Both the position numbers and the translations under genes were made by a program. Positions 3,150 through 44,834 of a stretch of DNA of 64,000 nucleotides are shown here, piece by piece. Under the pieces are notes generated by a model, which was given only the letters and a program-made list of their open reading frames with translations, was not told the origin of the DNA and did no database searches. This stretch comes from Candidatus Uhrbacteria bacterium. GTDB lineage: Bacteria; Patescibacteriota; Patescibacteriia; JACQRZ01. The DNA lies in contig JACPHV010000032.1 in assembly GCA_016188385.1 (NCBI GenBank), positions 5,174 to 69,173 of the forward strand, given 5' to 3'. Position 1 is the stretch's first letter; each line of letters begins with the position of its first letter.

Positions 3150-5387
3150 ATGACCACACACAAAAATTATATCGGCGCTGTAAAAATAATGTTGGCAGGA
3201 TTTGTGCTGGCAATAATGGGAGCTCCACTTTCTATTGTTCATGCACAAAAAGAAAAAATTGATGATTGGCAATTCACCCCGCAGTCATATACCAGTGTTT
3301 TCACATTGAATCTCCCGCCCTTTCCTGAATACTGGTATGCGTATGTTGTTCTTGTGTTAGCCTTTGTTTTGTGTCTGATCCCAATTGGAATCTTTTTTCA
3401 TGGCTTGTATCTCTTTTTTAGCAGCATTCGCGATAAAGAATACCGTTCAAGAGGGACGCATAAAATCGCGCTTGGTATATCTCCAGTCGTTGCTATATCC
3501 GCGCTCATCCTTTTTATTTTTCTCCTTACTGGAGGATCTCTGAACGCGCGAATGCTGTTTGTAGCGCTGAATCTCTTTTTTCTAACCTCGTTTATTGGCA
3601 GTATCGTGCTCTTGATAAGAGGCATCTATGTATGGATCAGATATCGAGCATTGGTTGATTGGAAAAAATGCGGGAGGATGAAAACATTTTTTGCCGTATA
3701 CAGCATTATCATTATTCTTGCCTTATGGAATGTTGTTTATTATTCGGCAAAAAGCGTGGTGTCATTTCCCGCAAACAGAACAGGATCCGTATCATTTGAT
3801 TCATCAGTTGGAAACGTACAATATTTTAATACTAGCCAGGCGCCACCGCCAGCAGCAGATACCTCCATCGGTCTATCCGTAGGAGGAGCAAAGGACATAG
3901 ATAATTTTCGAAAAAATATCAAAAATAATTATCTTCCGATTCCAACCGATGTGACGCATGAAGGATTGTTCTATGACTACTTGTTTGACACGGGTATCCA
4001 AAAACCCTGCGAAAAACTTTTCTGCCCATCATATTCGACTGCCGTATCCAAAGATCCCTTTTCCGGTGAGCAGAAGTATTTCCTTTCCATTGGCTTGAAT
4101 TCCGGCGTCCAACAAAAAGATTTTGCGCGGCGAAAGACCAATTTTCTTGTTGTCTTAGATATTTCAGGTTCCATGGGTGAGCAGTTTAACCGTTATTATT
4201 ACGACCGTTTCGGGCAGAAACAATCTGTTTTCGATAATCAACAGGATGAAGGAAAAACGAAAATGGAAATAGCGGCCGAGTCTATCAATGACATGCTTGG
4301 GCATCTCACGGGCGATGACAGCTTCGGCATGGCACTTTTTGATGACATATCGTATGTCGCAAAACCATTGCGCAAAGTTTCTGAAACAGATATGGAACGC
4401 ATCAAAAAACATATCAGCGAACTCAAGCCACAAGGGGGGACGAATATGTCAGCTGGCATGCAAGAGGCGCTCTGGCAATTTGAGGCATATAGAGGCACAG
4501 AAGATCCTGATTTTGAAAACCGCGTTATCTTTCTAACCGATGCGATGCCGAATACGGGCGATACTACTGAAGAAGGCATGTTTGGCATCGCAAAAAGGCT
4601 GGCAGAACAGAAGATTTATACAACATTTGTCGGAGTTGACTTTAACACCGAGTTGATTGAGTCAATTTCCAAGATTCGCGGCGCAAATTATTACTCCGTG
4701 CATTCTGCGAAAGAATTCAAGAAGCGCATGGATGAGGGATTTGACTCTATGGTTACACCACTCGTGTTTAATCTCAATCTTGAAATCATCGCCCCCGGCT
4801 TTCAGATAGAAAAAGTCTACGGTTCGCCAGAAGCAGACGAAACAACCGGTGAGATCATGAAAGTAAATACGCTATTCCCTTCAGAGCAGACCGAGGGGGA
4901 GACACGCGGCGGATTGGTGCTTCTCCAGCTGAAACGATTTGCTGATGACGCTACTGCCATAATGCTCAGGGCAAAGTATGAAAGTAGGCAAGGAGATATT
5001 CAGCAGTCAGATGAAATGGCATTCTTCAAGGAAGTGGAAGAGTATTATGATAATTTCGGCATTCGAAAAGGGATTGTGCTCGCGCGGTATGCAAATATCT
5101 TGCGTGATTGGATGTTTTATGAACGCGCACAAGGCACAGAGGAAGAACGCAAAATAGTGCGACCAGCCTCGCCAGTTGAGTATTATGATGTTGAGGGAAT
5201 ACCCATTGTATCTCCAGAGTTTACACTTGGAAAATGGGAACGGCAGTCGCAGGTTCTCCGCGTATCGGATACTTACAAAAATATTTTTACGGATTTTATC
5301 CCTTACATGATTACGGAGACGGAGGCTATTGGCGATCAAGCACTCCAGAAAGAGCTTGATGTCTTGGGGACGATCTTGAGTAAATAA
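3150..5387 (+). CDS. Multi-TM membrane protein with a von Willebrand factor A (VWA) domain
   Basis: Signal/TM helices in the first ~200 aa. MIDAS motif: DISGSMGEQ (DxSxS) plus downstream GGTNMSAGM and FLTDAMPNTGDT. Confidence 0.7.
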   Translation: MTTHKNYIGAVKIMLAGFVLAIMGAPLSIVHAQKEKIDDWQFTPQSYTSVFTLNLPPFPEYWYAYVVLVLAFVLCLIPIGIFFHGLYLFFSSIRDKEYRSRGTHKIALGISPVVAISALILFIFLLTGGSLNARMLFVALNLFFLTSFIGSIVLLIRGIYVWIRYRALVDWKKCGRMKTFFAVYSIIIILALWNVVYYSAKSVVSFPANRTGSVSFDSSVGNVQYFNTSQAPPPAADTSIGLSVGGAKDIDNFRKNIKNNYLPIPTDVTHEGLFYDYLFDTGIQKPCEKLFCPSYSTAVSKDPFSGEQKYFLSIGLNSGVQQKDFARRKTNFLVVLDISGSMGEQFNRYYYDRFGQKQSVFDNQQDEGKTKMEIAAESINDMLGHLTGDDSFGMALFDDISYVAKPLRKVSETDMERIKKHISELKPQGGTNMSAGMQEALWQFEAYRGTEDPDFENRVIFLTDAMPNTGDTTEEGMFGIAKRLAEQKIYTTFVGVDFNTELIESISKIRGANYYSVHSAKEFKKRMDEGFDSMVTPLVFNLNLEIIAPGFQIEKVYGSPEADETTGEIMKVNTLFPSEQTEGETRGGLVLLQLKRFADDATAIMLRAKYESRQGDIQQSDEMAFFKEVEEYYDNFGIRKGIVLARYANILRDWMFYERAQGTEEERKIVRPASPVEYYDVEGIPIVSPEFTLGKWERQSQVLRVSDTYKNIFTDFIPYMITETEAIGDQALQKELDVLGTILSK

Positions 5388-5521: not shown

Positions 5522-6388
5522 ATGATTTATTCCATTGTTCGTCTTTTTCTCATCGCGTTTTTCATGGCAGGCGTTTTCTCTGCGTCAATGGTCTCCGCGG
5601 CGTCGCTTTCAAGCCGCCTTTCAGGACGCATTCTGCTTCAGGTGGAAGACAAGGGGAAAGCATGGTATGTTGATCCATCAACCAAAGATCGCGCATATCT
5701 TGGCAGGCCCGCAGATGCGTTCCGCGCGATGAGAGAGTTGGGCCTCGGCATTACGAATGCGGACCTTGACCGCATCGTGGTATCGGATGACGGGAAATCC
5801 GGAGACACAAAATTTGCGCGGAAACTCGCGGGAAAAATTGTTCTGCAAGTTCAGTCAAAAGGCGAGGCATGGTATGTCAATCCCGTAGATCTGAAACGTT
5901 ATTATCTCGGCCGCCCCGCGGACGCGTTTTCCATTATGCGCGAGCTTGGTCTTGGCGTCTCAAACAAAGATATTGAGAAGATATCCGTAAAATCAGGATA
6001 TCAAGATCTTGGACAAATATCTTCTGGAATTCAAACGCAAGTTCAAGCACAGCCACCATCACCGTCATTGCCATCCGATCAAATACAGGATCAAACACCT
6101 GCGGTTGTTTTGGAAGATACAAAAGAAGGCCCGACAGAACCTCAAACAGAATCGACTCCAACATCAAAGCCTGAAGTAGAATCTGTTACACAGGAGACTC
6201 AAATACAGGGGCAGGAAAGTACATCATCAACATCGACTTCAGATCAGATACATGAACAAGTAGAGGAAGCCGCGCCAACAAAGTCGGAGGCTGAAACAGA
6301 AAAAGATCGATATAACAAGGCGATTGAAGACCGTTATAAAAACGAAGCGATATTCAGGTCACTTGATTTTGGAACAGGTATTTGGTAG
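5522..6388 (+). CDS. Secreted protein with two tandem ~55-aa repeats (G+IxLQVxxKGEAWYVxP...R.YLGRPADAF..MRELGLGI.N.DL..I) and a Q/P/T/S/E-rich tail
   Basis: N-terminal signal peptide MIYSIVRLFLIAFFMAGVFSASMVSAAS. Two near-identical repeats are visible in the translation. Low-complexity C-terminus. Confidence 0.6.
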   Translation: MIYSIVRLFLIAFFMAGVFSASMVSAASLSSRLSGRILLQVEDKGKAWYVDPSTKDRAYLGRPADAFRAMRELGLGITNADLDRIVVSDDGKSGDTKFARKLAGKIVLQVQSKGEAWYVNPVDLKRYYLGRPADAFSIMRELGLGVSNKDIEKISVKSGYQDLGQISSGIQTQVQAQPPSPSLPSDQIQDQTPAVVLEDTKEGPTEPQTESTPTSKPEVESVTQETQIQGQESTSSTSTSDQIHEQVEEAAPTKSEAETEKDRYNKAIEDRYKNEAIFRSLDFGTGIW

Positions 6389-24118: not shown

Positions 24119-24193
24119 GGCCTCATCGTCTAGTGGTTAGGACGACAGGTTCTCATCCTGTAAACCGGGGTTCGATTCCCCGTGGGGCTACCA
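24119..24193 (+). tRNA. tRNA-Glu (anticodon CUC), CCA encoded
   Basis: Cloverleaf folded by hand. Acceptor stem GGCCTCA/TGGGGCT, anticodon stem ACAGG/CCTGT with loop TTCTCAT, T-arm CGGGGTTCGATTCCCCG, then discriminator A + CCA. Confidence 0.8.
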
Positions 24194-26758: not shown

Positions 26759-28186
26759 ATGAAGAAACAAGCAGATATCGGAATGATCGGTTTGGCAGTC
26801 ATGGGGCAGAATCTCGTCTTAAACATGGCTGATCATGGCTACACGGTTGCCGTATATAATCGCACAGTGGAAATAACGGATGAGTTTCTAGATCATGAAG
26901 CGTCCGGCAAGCCAATCCTTGGAGCGCGTTCCGTCCAAGAACTCGTTTCACAGGTGCAAAAACCTCGCAAGATCATGCTCATGGTTAAGGCGGGTGCGCC
27001 GGTTGATGCGGTGATTGAACAGCTTCTCCCCTTTCTTGATAACGGCGATATCATCATTGATGGCGGAAATTCCTTTTTCAAAGATACGATACGCAGGCAG
27101 AAGTATCTCGAAGGGAAGGGATTACGTTTTATCGGAACAGGCGTCTCGGGAGGGGAAGAAGGAGCACGGCACGGCCCATCCATCATGCCCGGCGGATCGG
27201 CATCCGCATGGCCGGAGATAAAAAAAATCTTTCAGGATATATCCGCGAAAGTAGGACCGAATAATGACGTGCCATGTTGTGACTGGATCGGACAGGACGG
27301 CGCGGGGCATTTTGTAAAAATGGTGCACAACGGGATCGAGTACGGCGACATGGAATTGATCAGCGAAGCATATTTTGTATTAAAGACGATCCTCAACAAA
27401 TCTCCTGATGAAATGGGAGCGCTCTTTGAACGATGGAACGAAGGAGTGCTCGATTCCTATCTCGTTGAAATCACCGCCGCCATTTTACAAAAACGCGATG
27501 ATATGTCCGGCAATTACTTGATTGATATGATTCTTGACAAGGCCGGACAAAAGGGCACAGGAGTATGGACATCGATCACAGCGCTTGAGTTGGGGGTGCC
27601 GATACCTACGTTAATGGAAGCTACTGTCGCGCGCGCGGTCAGTGCCGCAAAAAAAGAAAGACTTGAGATCGTGAAGAGTCTCGGAGCTCCGAACGGGAAA
27701 AAGGAAGTTCATGATCCAAACGCGCTCATTCGTTCGCTGCATGACGCCCTCTATGCAGCGAAGATTCTTTCGTACACGCAGGGCTTTCAGCTGATGAGAG
27801 CAGCTTCGGATGAATACGCATGGAATCTTGACTACGGGCGCATCGCCTATCTCTGGCGCGGCGGTTGCATTATTCGCGCCCGCTTTCTCGAACAAATAAA
27901 ACAGGCATTTGATGATCATCGCGATCTTAAGAATCTCATGCTTGCTCCGTATTTTTCCCAGACTCTTTTAGCCGCGGAAAAGCAGTTGCGGGACATCGTA
28001 TGCACGGCAACACAGTCCGGTGTTCCCGTTCCGGCATTTTCATCCGCACTTGCATACTTTGACGCGTTTCGCACAGAAGTGCTGCCCGCACATATGATTC
28101 AAGCCCAGCGAGATTATTTCGGAGCGCATACGTATGAGAGGATCGATCGAGCGGGAACCTTCCATACCGAATGGACGAAACCGTAA
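26759..28186 (+). CDS. gnd: 6-phosphogluconate dehydrogenase (decarboxylating)
   Basis: N-terminal Rossmann motif IGMIGLAVMGQNLVLNMADHGYTVAVYNRT; full-length 6PGDH. Confidence 0.9.
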   Translation: MKKQADIGMIGLAVMGQNLVLNMADHGYTVAVYNRTVEITDEFLDHEASGKPILGARSVQELVSQVQKPRKIMLMVKAGAPVDAVIEQLLPFLDNGDIIIDGGNSFFKDTIRRQKYLEGKGLRFIGTGVSGGEEGARHGPSIMPGGSASAWPEIKKIFQDISAKVGPNNDVPCCDWIGQDGAGHFVKMVHNGIEYGDMELISEAYFVLKTILNKSPDEMGALFERWNEGVLDSYLVEITAAILQKRDDMSGNYLIDMILDKAGQKGTGVWTSITALELGVPIPTLMEATVARAVSAAKKERLEIVKSLGAPNGKKEVHDPNALIRSLHDALYAAKILSYTQGFQLMRAASDEYAWNLDYGRIAYLWRGGCIIRARFLEQIKQAFDDHRDLKNLMLAPYFSQTLLAAEKQLRDIVCTATQSGVPVPAFSSALAYFDAFRTEVLPAHMIQAQRDYFGAHTYERIDRAGTFHTEWTKP

Positions 28187-30870
28187 TGCAAAGATTTCCG
28201 GAACAACATGTGAGCGTCCGAGGAACTCATTCCGAAGGGAAAACGGCAAGGCAAGAATGGCGTGCGACGAGGTTTTATCAAGTACCGGCTGCCTTTGCTC
28301 TGTGTGCGTTAGCCATTGGCATGGCGCCGGTCCAGGCAGATGCCGCGACACTATCGCGCGATGAACTTTTTGCCGGTGAATATATTACAGTCACAGGCGA
28401 GAACTTCGGCCCGCCCAATCTCTCCACAAGCTATCTGTGCTTTTTTGATAACACTCACTGCGTGAGCGCCACGAGTTTTGGCGAACGCGCCGGATGGGAG
28501 TGGAGCGATACCGCCATTACGGGACAAGTGCCCAATGAAGTACCCATCAGCGGCGATATTATTGTATACGTTCAAGCAAAAAAAGAAGAATGTTTTCCGA
28601 ATCTTGGGTACTGCGAAGTCTCTACATTTCTTGAAGCGCGCGCGCGAGCATCCTATACCATCCTCCCGAAAATTTTGGATGTAAATCCGAAGCCTTCGGC
28701 AACGCGAAATCAGACGATTACGATAACCGGCACAGGATTCGGGGACCAGATCGGTGAAGTCCGCCTCGACTCATATCTCGCGGCAATCACCAGCTGGACT
28801 GACGGCAGCATTACTGTTACGCCTCCGGCACAACTTGTCGGGAGCACAAAACAAATCCGTATCACGACCGGAAACGCAAAAAGCGCGACGAGCGATTATC
28901 GGGTCGCTGTCGGCATATCCAACGATGAGTATTCCTACTTGCAGGAATATCTTGAACAAGTCTACGTCAAAGAAGCGTGGGCGCTTGCCGGAACAAACGA
29001 AGTGATCGTTGCCGTCATTGATGACGGCGTGCTGTTGTCGCACCCTGATCTGCAGGGACAGTTTTGGCGCAATACCAAGGAGATTCCCGGCAATGGCATC
29101 GATGATGATTTCAATGGATTCATAGACGACGTGCAAGGGTATAACTTCTTGGATGGAAATACCGACTTGTCTCCTAAAGGCCTTCACGGCACCGCGGTAG
29201 CCGGCATCATAGGCGCCGTGCGCGACAATGCGATCGGTATCGGCGGTATCGTGAAACATGTTAACATCATGCCGCTCTTGGTTGCGGATAGCGACGGCGT
29301 GACGAATTCGCAGATTGTCGACCGCGCGATCAAATACGCGGCGGACCATGGCGCATCGATCATAAATCTAAGCTTTAGCACAAGCGGGGAGGATCAATTC
29401 TTTCCACAACTGGATGCGTCGATCGATTACGCATTCAGCAAAGGAGCCGTGGTTGTCGCCGCGGCAGGCAACGGAGATGTCAAAACGGGAGCGGGGTTGC
29501 ATGTGAATAATTTCCCGCAGAGTCCGGTGTGCAATACGCGACGCGGTACTACAGGGCTCGGTATCGCAGCGCTCGATAATACTGACCGCCCGACCGGAGG
29601 CAACAAAATAGCAACCTGGTCGAATTATGGAAGCAATTGCATTTCTCTCTCCGCTCCAGGCACCCGCCTTTATACCACTACGGCCGATGCATATCAAAAA
29701 GAAGGCAAACTGTATGGCGCGGAAAGCGGAACATCATTCGCAACGCCACTGGTGGCAGGTATCGCTGCGCTTCTGAAAGCAACGTACCCGACTATGACGG
29801 CGACTAATATCATTGACCGTCTGCTTGCCACAGCCGATCCGATTGATGAATATAACCCCGAAAAAGCGGGACACATTGGCAAGCGAATCAATGCTTTTAA
29901 GGCATTGGCGGCCGGCAAACCTATCCCCGCGCTCGTCTCATTTTCACCGCATGAGTTCAATGCGGGAAGTAGGCTTCTCGTGTCACTATCACTCTATGAT
30001 CCTCTCTACTCACTTGTCTTAACTCCGGTGTCAGGAGGCTCTGATATCAGATTTTCTTCCGGAGAAATTACTGTCGTAAATACAACGGAGATTTCGATAG
30101 CTCTTCCGACATCCCTATTACCGGGTTCGTATCGGCTTCGTCTCCTTTCGCCCACCGGGGAAGAAATCAGTTTTCTCTCTGAATCTTTCGTAGTGCCGAT
30201 ACAACTTGTAAGCGATGAATCGACACAATCGAAACAAGAGCCATCGGAACACAGAGCGCAGATCGATGAACCATCCTCGGATATACAGGAACAAAGCGGC
30301 GATCAGCAATCAATGACCGAGAGTCCGATTATCATTGAGAAGGGGGAGACAGTCAGGCCAACATCAGAGATTAAATCGGAGCTCCTGCCGGAAGCCGTCC
30401 CGAATGAAAAAGTCGCCGGTAGCGGATCGCGGTCGGTCGTTACAGACCCAAAAGCAATTTCGCTGATCAATACATTAAAAGGCAGGATTCTTCTCCAGGT
30501 TGAGAGTAAAGGCGAGGCGTGGTATGTACGCCCCGATACCGGTGAACGCGTATTCATGGGGCGGCCGGCTGACGCGTTTCAGCTCATGCGCACGCTCGGC
30601 AAAGGAATCGCAAACGTTGATCTCGAACGTATCCCGGTCATTGGAAGTTCCAAGGCTCCAAGCGTTTCAGAGCTTGCTTTTACAAAAAAGCACGCGGGCA
30701 AGATTTTTATCCAGGTACAAGAAAAAGGCCGCGCGTGGTATGTGCATCCGAAAGAGTTCCGCAGATATTTTCTTGGCCGTCCCGCGGATGCGTTTGAAAT
30801 CATGCGGCGAACCGGACTTGGGATTACAACAAAAGACCTATCGTTGATTCCTATTCAGACTTTTCGTTGA
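28171..30870 (+). CDS. Secreted subtilisin-like (S8) serine protease with two C-terminal copies of the ~55-aa GEAWYV...GRPADAF repeat
   Basis: Catalytic triad context: VAVIDDGV (Asp), HGTAVAGIIG (His), GTSFATPLVAGIAALL (Ser). The C-terminal repeats GRILLQVESKGEAWYVRPDTGERVFMGRPADAFQLMRTLGKGIANVDLERI and GKIFIQVQEKGRAWYVHPKEFRRYFLGRPADAFEIMRRTGLGITTKDLSLI match the repeats of ORF 5522..6388. Confidence 0.85.
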   Translation: MDETVMQRFPEQHVSVRGTHSEGKTARQEWRATRFYQVPAAFALCALAIGMAPVQADAATLSRDELFAGEYITVTGENFGPPNLSTSYLCFFDNTHCVSATSFGERAGWEWSDTAITGQVPNEVPISGDIIVYVQAKKEECFPNLGYCEVSTFLEARARASYTILPKILDVNPKPSATRNQTITITGTGFGDQIGEVRLDSYLAAITSWTDGSITVTPPAQLVGSTKQIRITTGNAKSATSDYRVAVGISNDEYSYLQEYLEQVYVKEAWALAGTNEVIVAVIDDGVLLSHPDLQGQFWRNTKEIPGNGIDDDFNGFIDDVQGYNFLDGNTDLSPKGLHGTAVAGIIGAVRDNAIGIGGIVKHVNIMPLLVADSDGVTNSQIVDRAIKYAADHGASIINLSFSTSGEDQFFPQLDASIDYAFSKGAVVVAAAGNGDVKTGAGLHVNNFPQSPVCNTRRGTTGLGIAALDNTDRPTGGNKIATWSNYGSNCISLSAPGTRLYTTTADAYQKEGKLYGAESGTSFATPLVAGIAALLKATYPTMTATNIIDRLLATADPIDEYNPEKAGHIGKRINAFKALAAGKPIPALVSFSPHEFNAGSRLLVSLSLYDPLYSLVLTPVSGGSDIRFSSGEITVVNTTEISIALPTSLLPGSYRLRLLSPTGEEISFLSESFVVPIQLVSDESTQSKQEPSEHRAQIDEPSSDIQEQSGDQQSMTESPIIIEKGETVRPTSEIKSELLPEAVPNEKVAGSGSRSVVTDPKAISLINTLKGRILLQVESKGEAWYVRPDTGERVFMGRPADAFQLMRTLGKGIANVDLERIPVIGSSKAPSVSELAFTKKHAGKIFIQVQEKGRAWYVHPKEFRRYFLGRPADAFEIMRRTGLGITTKDLSLIPIQTFR

Positions 30871-44760: not shown

Positions 44761-44834
44761 TGCGGGATCGTCTAACGGCAGGACCCGTGACTCTGAATCA
44801 CGTTATCCAGGTTCGAATCCTGGTCCCGCAGCCA
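44761..44834 (+). tRNA. tRNA-Gln (anticodon CUG), CCA encoded; U1:A72 first pair
   Basis: Acceptor TGCGGGA/TCCCGCA; anticodon stem CGTGA/TCACG with loop CTCTGAA; T-arm CCAGGTTCGAATCCTGG; discriminator G + CCA. Starts 1 nt after the dnaX TGA stop. Confidence 0.8.

What the first reader, a model, noticed from the sequence alone, without database searches (positions are those of the whole stretch)
5522..6388. Unrecognised, highly conserved ~55-aa module repeated within and between secreted proteins
Four copies of one module are visible: two in ORF 5522-6388 and two at the C-terminus of the S8 protease (approx. nt 30440-30860). The consensus is roughly L.G+I.LQV..KGEAWYV.P....R.YLGRPADAF..MR.LGLGI.N.DL..I.V. 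GEAWYV and GRPADAF are invariant across all four copies. I cannot assign it to LysM, PG_binding_1, SH3b, SPOR, PepSY or SLH from memory. It probably represents a lineage-specific cell-surface or cell-wall binding module that targets both a standalone protein and a protease to the same ligand.
Basis: seen in the sequence. Interest (0 to 1): 0.6.

Follow-up and report, generated by a model that had tools for sequence, protein, structure and literature searches.

The report
Uncatalogued paired surface-targeting module of Patescibacteria
Two secreted proteins of this Candidatus Uhrbacteria genome share a tandem pair of ~59-residue modules from a large protein-domain family that no database tested here catalogues and that I found only in Patescibacteria; it most likely tethers secreted enzymes to the cell envelope, but no binding has been shown.

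Summary
Four ungapped ~59-aa copies (49-63% identical) occur as one pair after the signal peptide of ORF 5522-6388 and one pair at the C-terminus of the TIG+S8 protease (28171-30870). There are no other copies in the window. One detail is wrong: GRPADAF is invariant, but "GEAWYV" is really G-x-AWYV (K/E/E/R).

The module matches nothing in Pfam, NCBIfam, PHROGs or PDB sequences. A confident AF2 model of the pair (pLDDT 89.6, pTM 0.83) has no Foldseek match in the PDB or BFVD.

The family is large: 3,573 clusters at 50% identity. Every named source is Patescibacteria.

The functional unit is the pair. 148 of 150 representatives and 83 of 83 genomic ORFs have exactly two copies, and first and second copies are distinguishable.

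The pair usually follows a signal peptide. It is fused to many extracytoplasmic cargoes (NAGPA, CAP, cupredoxin, proteases, nuclease, phosphatase), and carriers show no transmembrane, lipobox or LPxTG anchor.

The commonest carrier (pair+NAGPA) often precedes a cluster of three GT2 genes and a nucleotidyltransferase gene.

Best explanation: a non-covalent cell-envelope retention module with an unknown ligand. This is inferred, not shown. I rate it a new variant of a known kind, of moderate interest.

The parts
5522..6388 (+). Gene for a 288-aa secreted protein (MBI2484251.1, 'hypothetical protein', Candidatus Uhrbacteria). Layout: signal peptide, module pair, acidic low-complexity linker, conserved C-terminal motif.
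5522..5599 (+). Predicted Sec signal peptide (aa 1-26). It has R7, the hydrophobic run LFLIAFFMAGVF, and VSA|A as the likely cleavage site.
   Evidence: Read directly from the translation. No signal-peptide predictor was available. 136 of 150 family representatives have an equivalent N-terminal hydrophobic segment.
5609..5785 (+). Module copy 1 (aa 30-88), first-position type.
5816..5992 (+). Module copy 2 (aa 99-157), second-position type.
   Evidence: the AF2 pair model covers aa 28-160
5993..6301 (+). Q/S/T/E/P-rich acidic low-complexity linker. Its length and sequence vary between orthologs.
6302..6385 (+). C-terminal 28-aa motif (KDRYNKAIEDRYKNEAIFRSLDFGTGIW). It is conserved in the orthologs L001 and P0067. 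Its function is unknown.
28171..30870 (+). Gene for a secreted TIG + subtilase (S8) protease that ends in the module pair. The true start is more likely the ATG at 28186, which gives a TAATG overlap with the gnd stop codon.
   Evidence: an ortholog with the same architecture is in L023
28666..28893 (+). IPT/TIG domain (aa 166-241).
28996..29835 (+). Peptidase_S8 catalytic domain (aa 276-555). The DDG, HGTAVAG and GTSFATP motifs are present.
30466..30642 (+). Module copy 3 (aa 766-824 of the protease), first-position type.
30682..30858 (+). Module copy 4 (aa 838-896 of the protease), second-position type.

Best explanation
The four copies are two instances of one evolutionary and structural unit. 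That unit is a tandem pair of ~59-residue alpha/beta modules. Each module has a three-stranded beta-meander carrying G-x-AWYV-x-P and R-Y-Y-L, then a helix that begins at GRPxDAF, then an LGLGI strand and a short helix.

The pair is exported by the Sec pathway. I infer that it holds its cargo non-covalently on the producer's own cell envelope by binding a component that is conserved across these Patescibacteria. The most likely ligand is a wall-associated glycopolymer or peptidoglycan.

In this window the pair would tether (a) a TIG+S8 serine protease, making it a cell-envelope protease, and (b) a small protein consisting of an acidic disordered linker and a conserved C-terminal motif.

Shown: the repeat, the pair as the unit, the secreted context, the promiscuous cargo, the absence of other anchors, the restriction to Patescibacteria, and the lack of any catalogued relative.

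Inferred: retention on the cell's own envelope, and the nature of the ligand.
For: 1. Real and large family. A profile of the four copies finds 3,573 cluster representatives at 50% identity with E<=1e-3, and 2,340 with E<=1e-30.

2. The pair is the unit.
- 148 of 150 top representatives have two copies.
- 83 of 83 module-bearing ORFs in 80 GTDB loci have two copies.
- Held-out HMMs for first and second copies assign 129 of 148 copies correctly, and they assign all four window copies by position.
- AF2 models the pair at pLDDT 89.6 and pTM 0.83, against pLDDT 77 for a single module.

3. Extracytoplasmic location.
- In 133 of 150 representatives the pair lies within 60 residues of the N-terminus, directly after a hydrophobic signal segment (present in 136 of 150).
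- In 12 of 150 it is C-terminal, as in the window's protease.

4. Promiscuous cargo of secreted type: NAGPA, CAP, fn3, purple acid phosphatase N-domain, cupredoxin, YHYH, trypsin, SNase, transglutaminase, M23, Kazal and S8.

5. No alternative anchor. Among 150 representatives there is 1 extra TM-like segment, 0 LPxTG motifs and 1 lipobox. Cargo such as cupredoxins would need to be retained on a cell that has no enclosed periplasm (inference).

6. Link to glycans. 43 of 80 genomic loci encode signal peptide + pair + NAGPA phosphodiester glycosidase. In 20 of these the gene is followed on the same strand by GT2-GT2-GT2-sugar nucleotidyltransferase.

7. A conserved ligand is implied. Modules stay 40-83% identical to the window's pair across MAGs labelled Uhrbacteria, Falkowbacteria, Kerfeldbacteria, Doudnabacteria and Parcubacteria. 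The near-invariant positions are rich in aromatics: W/Y19, Y20, Y29, Y/F30, F38.
Against: - There is no binding experiment of any kind, and the ligand is unknown.
- The module shows no homology or fold similarity to any known wall-binding domain, so the functional class rests only on architecture and context.
- Classical peptidoglycan hydrolase cargo is rare in the sample (M23 in 1 of 109). That is weaker than expected for a peptidoglycan-binding domain.
- The GT2 cluster neighbourhood concerns one cargo (NAGPA) and may reflect that enzyme rather than the module.
- I could not inspect model coordinates, so I could not tell which conserved residues are exposed.
Confidence: 0.5

Rival explanations
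1. Protein-protein docking module. The pair would bind a scaffold or S-layer protein, like a dockerin on a cohesin, and so assemble a multi-enzyme surface complex rather than bind a wall polymer.
For: - The strict duplication recalls the duplicated dockerin segment (general knowledge).
- In about half of the representatives the two copies are about 120 aa apart. TSP3_bac calcium-binding repeats were found in 28 of 109 carriers and, where I looked (P0065, aa 99-116), they lie in the spacer between the copies.
- Many short proteins consist of little more than a signal peptide and the pair.
- The cargo set is broad, as in cellulosomal enzymes.
Against: - No candidate partner gene recurs next to module genes in the 80 loci. 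The only recurrent context is the GT2 / nucleotidyltransferase cluster.
- There is no sequence similarity to dockerins in Pfam.
- The AF2 pair is a compact alpha/beta body, not an EF-hand pair.
Confidence: 0.2
2. Host-adhesion module. The pair would bind the surface of the host organism of these presumed episymbionts and deliver enzymes onto the host.
For: - Cultivated Patescibacteria are episymbionts (abstract of PMC11623550, seen).
- Some cargo could attack or harvest from a host: proteases, nuclease, CAP, M23.
Against: - The module is highly conserved across distant Patescibacteria lineages that presumably have different hosts. Adhesin tips usually diverge quickly (general knowledge).
- Cargo such as cupredoxins, and the NAGPA protein encoded beside the cell's own glycosyltransferase cluster, point to the producer's own envelope.
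Confidence: 0.12
3. Export or folding helper. The pair would be an N-terminal pro-region or intramolecular chaperone that is removed after secretion, with no anchoring role.
For: - In 133 of 150 representatives the pair follows the signal peptide directly.
- There are weak, sub-threshold Pfam hits to the alpha-lytic protease prodomain (E 0.012-0.18, below the cut-off).
Against: - The pair is C-terminal in the window's S8 protease and in 12 of 150 representatives.
- Most cargo is not protease.
- Some proteins consist only of the pair.
- The strict two-copy rule and strong conservation are unusual for pro-regions.
Confidence: 0.08

Closest known systems
SLH domain triplets (PF00395) and CWB2 triplets (PF04122) of Gram-positive surface proteins
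   Same: They are short modules used in a fixed tandem number that together form one binding unit. They sit at either end of Sec-secreted proteins and are fused to very diverse cargo, which they hold non-covalently on a secondary cell-wall polymer (general knowledge). The number rule, placement and cargo diversity were observed here.
   Different: There is no sequence match. The pair has two copies, not three. The predicted beta-beta-beta-alpha-beta-alpha topology differs from helical SLH and from the alpha/beta CWB2 fold (plus general knowledge). The ligand is unknown. The family was found only in Patescibacteria.
LysM (PF01476), SPOR, PG_binding_1 and SH3b peptidoglycan-binding modules
   Same: They are small, promiscuous, often repeated modules that target secreted enzymes to the wall.
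   Different: None is matched by the window proteins at E<=1 or by 109 family members at E<=1e-3. Their topologies differ: LysM is beta-alpha-alpha-beta, SPOR is beta-alpha-beta-beta-alpha-beta, PG_binding_1 is all-alpha and SH3b is all-beta (general knowledge). Peptidoglycan hydrolase cargo, which is typical for these domains, is rare here.
Choline-binding / CW_binding_1 repeats and WW domains (aromatic beta-hairpins)
   Same: The first half of the module (G-E-A-W-Y-V-x-P-x-x-x-K-R-Y-Y-L-G) is an aromatic-rich beta-meander that resembles the G-W-x...G-x-x-Y-Y pattern. A few members give sub-threshold WW hits (E 0.02-0.12), and the single-module model gives weak Foldseek hits to WW structures (E>=3).
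   Different: All of these scores are below significance. The module has an additional helix-strand-helix half and works as a pair, not as a long solenoid of ~20-aa repeats.
Cell-envelope proteinases of lactic acid bacteria (PrtP-type S8 with a C-terminal anchor)
   Same: The window's protease has the same logic: a signal peptide, an S8 catalytic domain, spacer domains and a C-terminal surface-retention region (general knowledge, see PMC10535647 listed).
   Different: The anchor here is the novel pair, not an LPxTG/sortase signal or an S-layer-type anchor. No LPxTG was found in 150 family members.
Dockerin type I (duplicated calcium-binding segment)
   Same: It is a duplicated short segment that acts as one unit and targets many different secreted enzymes to one receptor.
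   Different: There is no sequence match. The predicted fold is alpha/beta, not an EF-hand pair. The pair is mostly N-terminal. No cohesin-like partner was identified.

Membership tests
LysM (PF01476) | Significant match to the family profile and a beta-alpha-alpha-beta fold | tested here: not met
   There is no hit at E<=1 for either window protein, and none among 109 family members at E<=1e-3. The predicted topology is beta-beta-beta-alpha-beta-alpha.
SLH (PF00395) / CW_binding_2 (PF04122) | Significant match to the family profile; three tandem copies | tested here: not met
   There are no Pfam hits. The copy number is two in 148 of 150 representatives and in 83 of 83 genomic ORFs.
   No such hit covers the module region. 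SH3_3 occurs in one of 109 members as a separate domain.
Ribosomal protein L30/L7E (the name JGI gives to several family members) | Sequence or profile similarity to uL30 | tested here: not met
The JGI-named members have no Ribosomal_L30 Pfam hit even at E<=10.
WW domain (PF00397) | Score above the Pfam gathering threshold (26.9 bits) | tested here: not met
   The best scores are 12.9-15.2 bits (E 0.02-0.12) in two members. Foldseek against WW structures gives E>=3.3.
Any solved structure (PDB) | Sequence or fold match | tested here: not met
Modular non-covalent cell-envelope anchoring repeats (functional class) | Extracytoplasmic location (export signal) | tested here: met
   136 of 150 representatives have an N-terminal hydrophobic segment. 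Both window proteins have one.
Modular non-covalent cell-envelope anchoring repeats (functional class) | Same module fused to many unrelated secreted cargo domains, at either terminus | tested here: met
   39 different Pfam families were found in 109 members. The pair is N-terminal in 133, C-terminal in 12 and internal in 5 of 150.
Modular non-covalent cell-envelope anchoring repeats (functional class) | Direct binding to a wall polymer or envelope component | not testable with these tools
   This needs a binding assay. The only support is indirect: no other anchor is present, and the NAGPA carrier lies next to a glycosyltransferase cluster.
Peptidase S8 (the protease that carries the second pair) | Profile match and the Asp/His/Ser catalytic motifs | tested here: met
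   PF00082 scores 2.2e-45. The motifs DDG, HGTAVAG and GTSFATP are visible in the translation.

The most novel reading that the evidence does not exclude
The pair would be a new protein fold that serves as the principal non-covalent surface-display device of a large part of the Patescibacteria. It would bind a lineage-specific wall glycopolymer, possibly the product of the conserved cluster of three GT2 genes and a nucleotidyltransferase gene that follows the pair-NAGPA gene. Its presence would then define the anchored surface proteome (proteases, nucleases, phosphatases, cupredoxins, CAP proteins) of these uncultivated, ultra-small bacteria.
Probability: 0.35. Interest if true: 0.7.

Novelty: new variant of a known kind. 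Interest (0 to 1): 0.5.

Why it matters
Patescibacteria (CPR) make up a large share of bacterial diversity. They are mostly uncultivated and live by scavenging, and many live attached to other cells, so their surface proteins are central to their biology. Most of those proteins are annotated as 'hypothetical'.

A single recognisable tag shared by thousands of secreted proteins would bring three benefits:
- It gives a direct way to list the envelope-retained proteome from genomes alone.
- It is a compact ~130-aa reagent for labelling or capturing these cells in enrichments, if it does bind the cell's own wall.
- It points to a conserved but unidentified envelope component.

There is also an annotation gain. 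The family deserves its own profile model. Several public names for its members are wrong ('ribosomal protein L30/L7E', 'Cas6').

Tried and rejected
- Known binding domains. Pfam, NCBIfam and PHROGs scans of the window proteins, and of 109+7 family members, gave nothing over the module.
- Solved structures by sequence, with a single sequence and with a 114-sequence profile: nothing.
- Fold search of the single-module model (pLDDT 77) and of the pair model (pLDDT 89.6) against PDB and BFVD with Foldseek: nothing significant. The top single-module hits are only generic 'three strands plus helix' resemblances at E>=1.7 (lambda integrase arm-binding domain, WW, MBD).
- The JGI label 'ribosomal protein L30/L7E' was tested and rejected.
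- An apparent presence in Gammaproteobacteria was rejected. In most of the 31 loci titled that way, flanking genes are 50-92% identical in protein to loci labelled Patescibacteria. 8 of the 31 had no flanking match and stay unverified.
- Exact-motif and topic searches of the literature found no description. A search on bacterial NAGPA was uninformative.
- GenBank phages and PLSDB plasmids gave no tblastn match.
- An exact look-up of ORF 5522 in the contig index found no record.
- Local gene context in the window gives no functional clue (VWA membrane protein, NUDIX, SnoaL-like, gnd, TPR, thymidylate kinase).

Full report
**1. The observation**

- ORF 5522-6388 (+) encodes a 288-aa protein. ORF 28171-30870 (+) encodes an 899-aa protein.
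- Searching both for the AWYV core gives four copies. They lie at aa 30-88 and 99-157 of the first protein and at aa 766-824 and 838-896 of the second.
- The copies align over 59 columns without a gap. Pairwise identity is 49-63% and 25 columns are invariant.
- An HMM built from the four copies and run against every six-frame segment of the window recovers only these four. Domain E-values are about 1e-35, and the next best hit has E 0.28. The repeat is real and there are no further copies in the 64 kb.
GRPADAF is invariant, but the other string reads GKAWYV / GEAWYV / GEAWYV / GRAWYV.
Its catalytic motifs are present.
- Its start is probably the ATG at 28186. That forms a TAATG overlap with the stop of the upstream gnd gene.

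**2. Source organism**

The 288-aa protein is identical to MBI2484251.1, a 'hypothetical protein' from a Candidatus Uhrbacteria MAG. The neighbouring gnd and VWA proteins come from the same 82-kb contig. The window is therefore Patescibacteria (CPR).

**3. Is the module catalogued?**

- Pfam (24,736 models) gives nothing over the module at E<=1. NCBIfam gives nothing, nor does PHROGs.
- Scanning 109 family members against Pfam one by one yields only cargo domains.
- The PDB has no sequence relative, either by phmmer or with a 114-sequence profile (best E 1.2).
- Full-text searches for the motif strings returned no papers. Topic searches found no description of the module.
- Some JGI records call members 'ribosomal protein L30/L7E', 'Cas6' or 'YvbJ'.
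- I tested the L30 label. hhalign gave probability 0.3%, and no Ribosomal_L30 hit appeared even at E<=10. These names are spurious.

**4. Size and range of the family**

- The exhaustive profile search over 1.84 billion cluster representatives found 3,573 proteins with E<=1e-3 and 2,340 with E<=1e-30.
- Every hit that carries an organism name is Patescibacteria: Uhrbacteria, Falkowbacteria, Parcubacteria or 'Patescibacteria group'. The only exceptions are unclassified 'bacterium' records and one 1.1-kb fragment binned as Elusimicrobiales.
- A scan of one genome per GTDB species found at least 579 loci. The best 80 add Kerfeldbacteria and Doudnabacteria.
- About 31 of those 80 are titled 'uncultured Gammaproteobacteria'. 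In most of them, flanking genes are 50-92% identical in protein to loci labelled Patescibacteria, so the titles are mislabels. 8 of the 31 had no flanking match and stay unverified.
- GenBank phages and PLSDB plasmids contain no copy.
- Several MAGs contribute three or four carrier genes within the top 80 loci alone.

**5. The unit is a pair**

- 148 of the 150 best representatives have exactly two copies and two have three.
- All 83 module-bearing ORFs in the 80 genomic loci have two.
- Spacing between copy starts is bimodal: about 60-72 aa (adjacent) or about 119-122 aa.
- TSP3_bac calcium-binding repeats occur in 28 of 109 carriers. In P0065 (aa 99-116) they lie in the spacer between the two copies.
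- First and second copies are distinguishable. HMMs trained on half the pairs classify 129 of 148 held-out copies correctly. They place all four window copies by position, with margins of 1.8-5.3 bits.
- The duplication is therefore old, and the pair is moved as a whole, including onto the C-terminus of the S8 protease.
- AF2 agrees. One module alone models at pLDDT 77 and pTM 0.53. The pair (aa 28-160) models at pLDDT 89.6 and pTM 0.83, which means one compact body.
- Each module has this layout:
  - a short N-terminal helix;
  - three strands (ILLQ / AWYV / RYY);
  - a helix starting at P-A-D-A-F;
  - a strand (LGI);
  - a short helix and a terminal bridge.
- Over 565 modules, these positions are at least 95% conserved: G6, I8, V12, G16, A18, Y20, P23, P34, A37, M41 and G47. 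W19 is 80% W and 20% Y.
- GRPxDAF is 91-95% conserved. A minority variant, Y[LM]KDGxxA[YF], also exists.

**6. Architecture and context**

- In 133 of 150 representatives the pair begins within 60 residues of the N-terminus, directly after a hydrophobic signal segment (present in 136 of 150). In 12 it is C-terminal.
- The rest of the protein is highly variable. Cargo domains found are CAP (12 of 109), fn3, purple acid phosphatase N-domain, cupredoxin/plastocyanin, YHYH, trypsin-like proteases, staphylococcal nuclease, NAGPA, transglutaminase, M23, Kazal, CARDB, beta-propellers and S8.
- No other anchoring device is present. Among 150 representatives there is one further TM-like segment, no LPxTG and one lipobox.
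- The commonest genomic carrier, at 43 of 80 loci, is a ~410-aa protein of signal peptide + pair + NAGPA phosphodiester glycosidase.
- In 20 of those loci it is followed on the same strand by three GT2 glycosyltransferases and a sugar-phosphate nucleotidyltransferase. This looks like a glycopolymer-synthesis cluster.
- The window's S8 protease has an ortholog with the same architecture in another Uhrbacteria MAG (L023). A 2,103-aa Uhrbacteria S8 peptidase also ends in the pair.
- Orthologs of ORF 5522 keep the pair and a 28-aa C-terminal motif, while the acidic linker varies. Close paralogs carry a small cupredoxin instead.
- The immediate neighbours in the window give no operon-level clue.

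**7. Mechanism**

The facts in sections 4-6 fit a retention module that keeps secreted proteins on the producer's envelope.

- The module is very conserved across deep Patescibacteria lineages, which argues for a conserved ligand belonging to the cell itself. The surfaces of diverse hosts would not be conserved in this way.
- Cargo such as cupredoxins is useful only if it stays at the cell.
- The aromatic-rich invariant positions and the NAGPA/glycosyltransferase neighbourhood make a wall glycopolymer or peptidoglycan the leading candidate. This step is inference only.

I put this reading at 0.5. The rivals are:
- a dockerin-like protein-protein docking unit (0.2);
- a host adhesin (0.12);
- a cleaved pro-region or chaperone (0.08), contradicted by C-terminal and stand-alone occurrences.

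**8. Comparison with known systems**

- In function the pair resembles SLH or CWB2 triplets, LysM repeats and choline-binding repeats. The protease resembles PrtP-type cell-envelope proteinases.
- It is a member of none of these families. All profile tests failed and the predicted topology differs.
- The first half of the module has a WW-like or choline-repeat-like aromatic hairpin pattern, but the scores are sub-threshold.

**9. Novelty and verdict**

- This is a large domain family found only in Patescibacteria, with no catalogued relative in any resource tested here. It has no detectable solved-structure relative and it follows a strict two-copy rule.
- The kind of thing it most probably is, a modular surface-targeting domain, is well known. 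Uncharacterised families are also common in CPR genomes.
- I therefore rate it a new variant of a known kind with moderate interest (0.5).

**10. Side observation**

Eight IMG/VR contigs carry relatives, and seven of them encode single-copy forms behind a signal peptide. One contig (L084) also encodes a tape-measure protein and an AAA_24 ATPase, so it is phage-like. A phage-borne form that targets the same envelope component would fit the main model, but I did not pursue this.

Noticed in passing
window 28171-28188: The mechanical ORF start at 28171 overlaps the gnd gene. The ATG at 28186 forms a TAATG stop/start overlap and is the likelier start of the S8 protease. The 899-aa product is not in the protein collection.
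   Followed up: partly
window 6302-6385: A 28-aa C-terminal motif (KDRYNKAIEDRYKNEAIFRSLDFGTGIW) of ORF 5522 is conserved in orthologs (L001, P0067), while the preceding acidic linker is not. Its function is unknown.
   Followed up: partly
L079 5923-11074 and 19 other loci (e.g. L059, L071, L075): The commonest carrier (signal peptide + pair + NAGPA phosphodiester glycosidase, ~410 aa) is followed on the same strand by GT2-GT2-GT2-sugar nucleotidyltransferase. Upstream on the opposite strand lies a thymidylate-metabolism cluster (dCMP deaminase, ThyA, DHFR, Tmk-dUTPase).
   Followed up: partly
L004, L006, L009-L011 and about 26 further loci: MAG records titled 'uncultured Gammaproteobacteria bacterium' (binchicken / SRP co-assembly TPA submissions) are Patescibacteria, judging by 50-92% protein identity of flanking genes to loci labelled Patescibacteria. 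8 of the 31 gave no flanking match. The titles are unreliable.
   Followed up: yes
proteins P0240, P0282, P0294, P0306, P0301, P0076, P0311: JGI names for family members ('ribosomal protein L30/L7E', 'CRISPR/Cas system endoribonuclease Cas6', 'YvbJ') are spurious. No profile support was found.
   Followed up: yes
L084 7920-8549 (also L082-L088): IMG/VR viral contigs encode signal-peptide proteins with a single module copy. L084 also carries a tape-measure protein (TMP_3) and an AAA_24 ATPase, so at least one phage-like element bears the module.
   Followed up: partly
family-wide (e.g. P0022, P0037, P0049, L081, L083): A minority sequence variant replaces YLGRPxDAF by Y[LM]KDGxxA[YF] (14 of 565 modules). 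The GRP-DAF motif is therefore not universal in the family.
   Followed up: partly
window 3150-5387: The gene directly upstream encodes a 745-aa protein with several N-terminal hydrophobic segments and a VWA domain. The gene before it (2194-2799) gives a weak PsbP_2 match, and 56-2185 has no Pfam match.
   Followed up: no
L063 244-6555 (P0334): A 2,103-aa Uhrbacteria 'S8 family serine peptidase' also ends in the module pair, here with a ~64-aa spacer between the copies.
   Followed up: no
window 24119-24190 and 44761-44831: Two tRNA genes are the only Rfam matches in the window.
   Followed up: no
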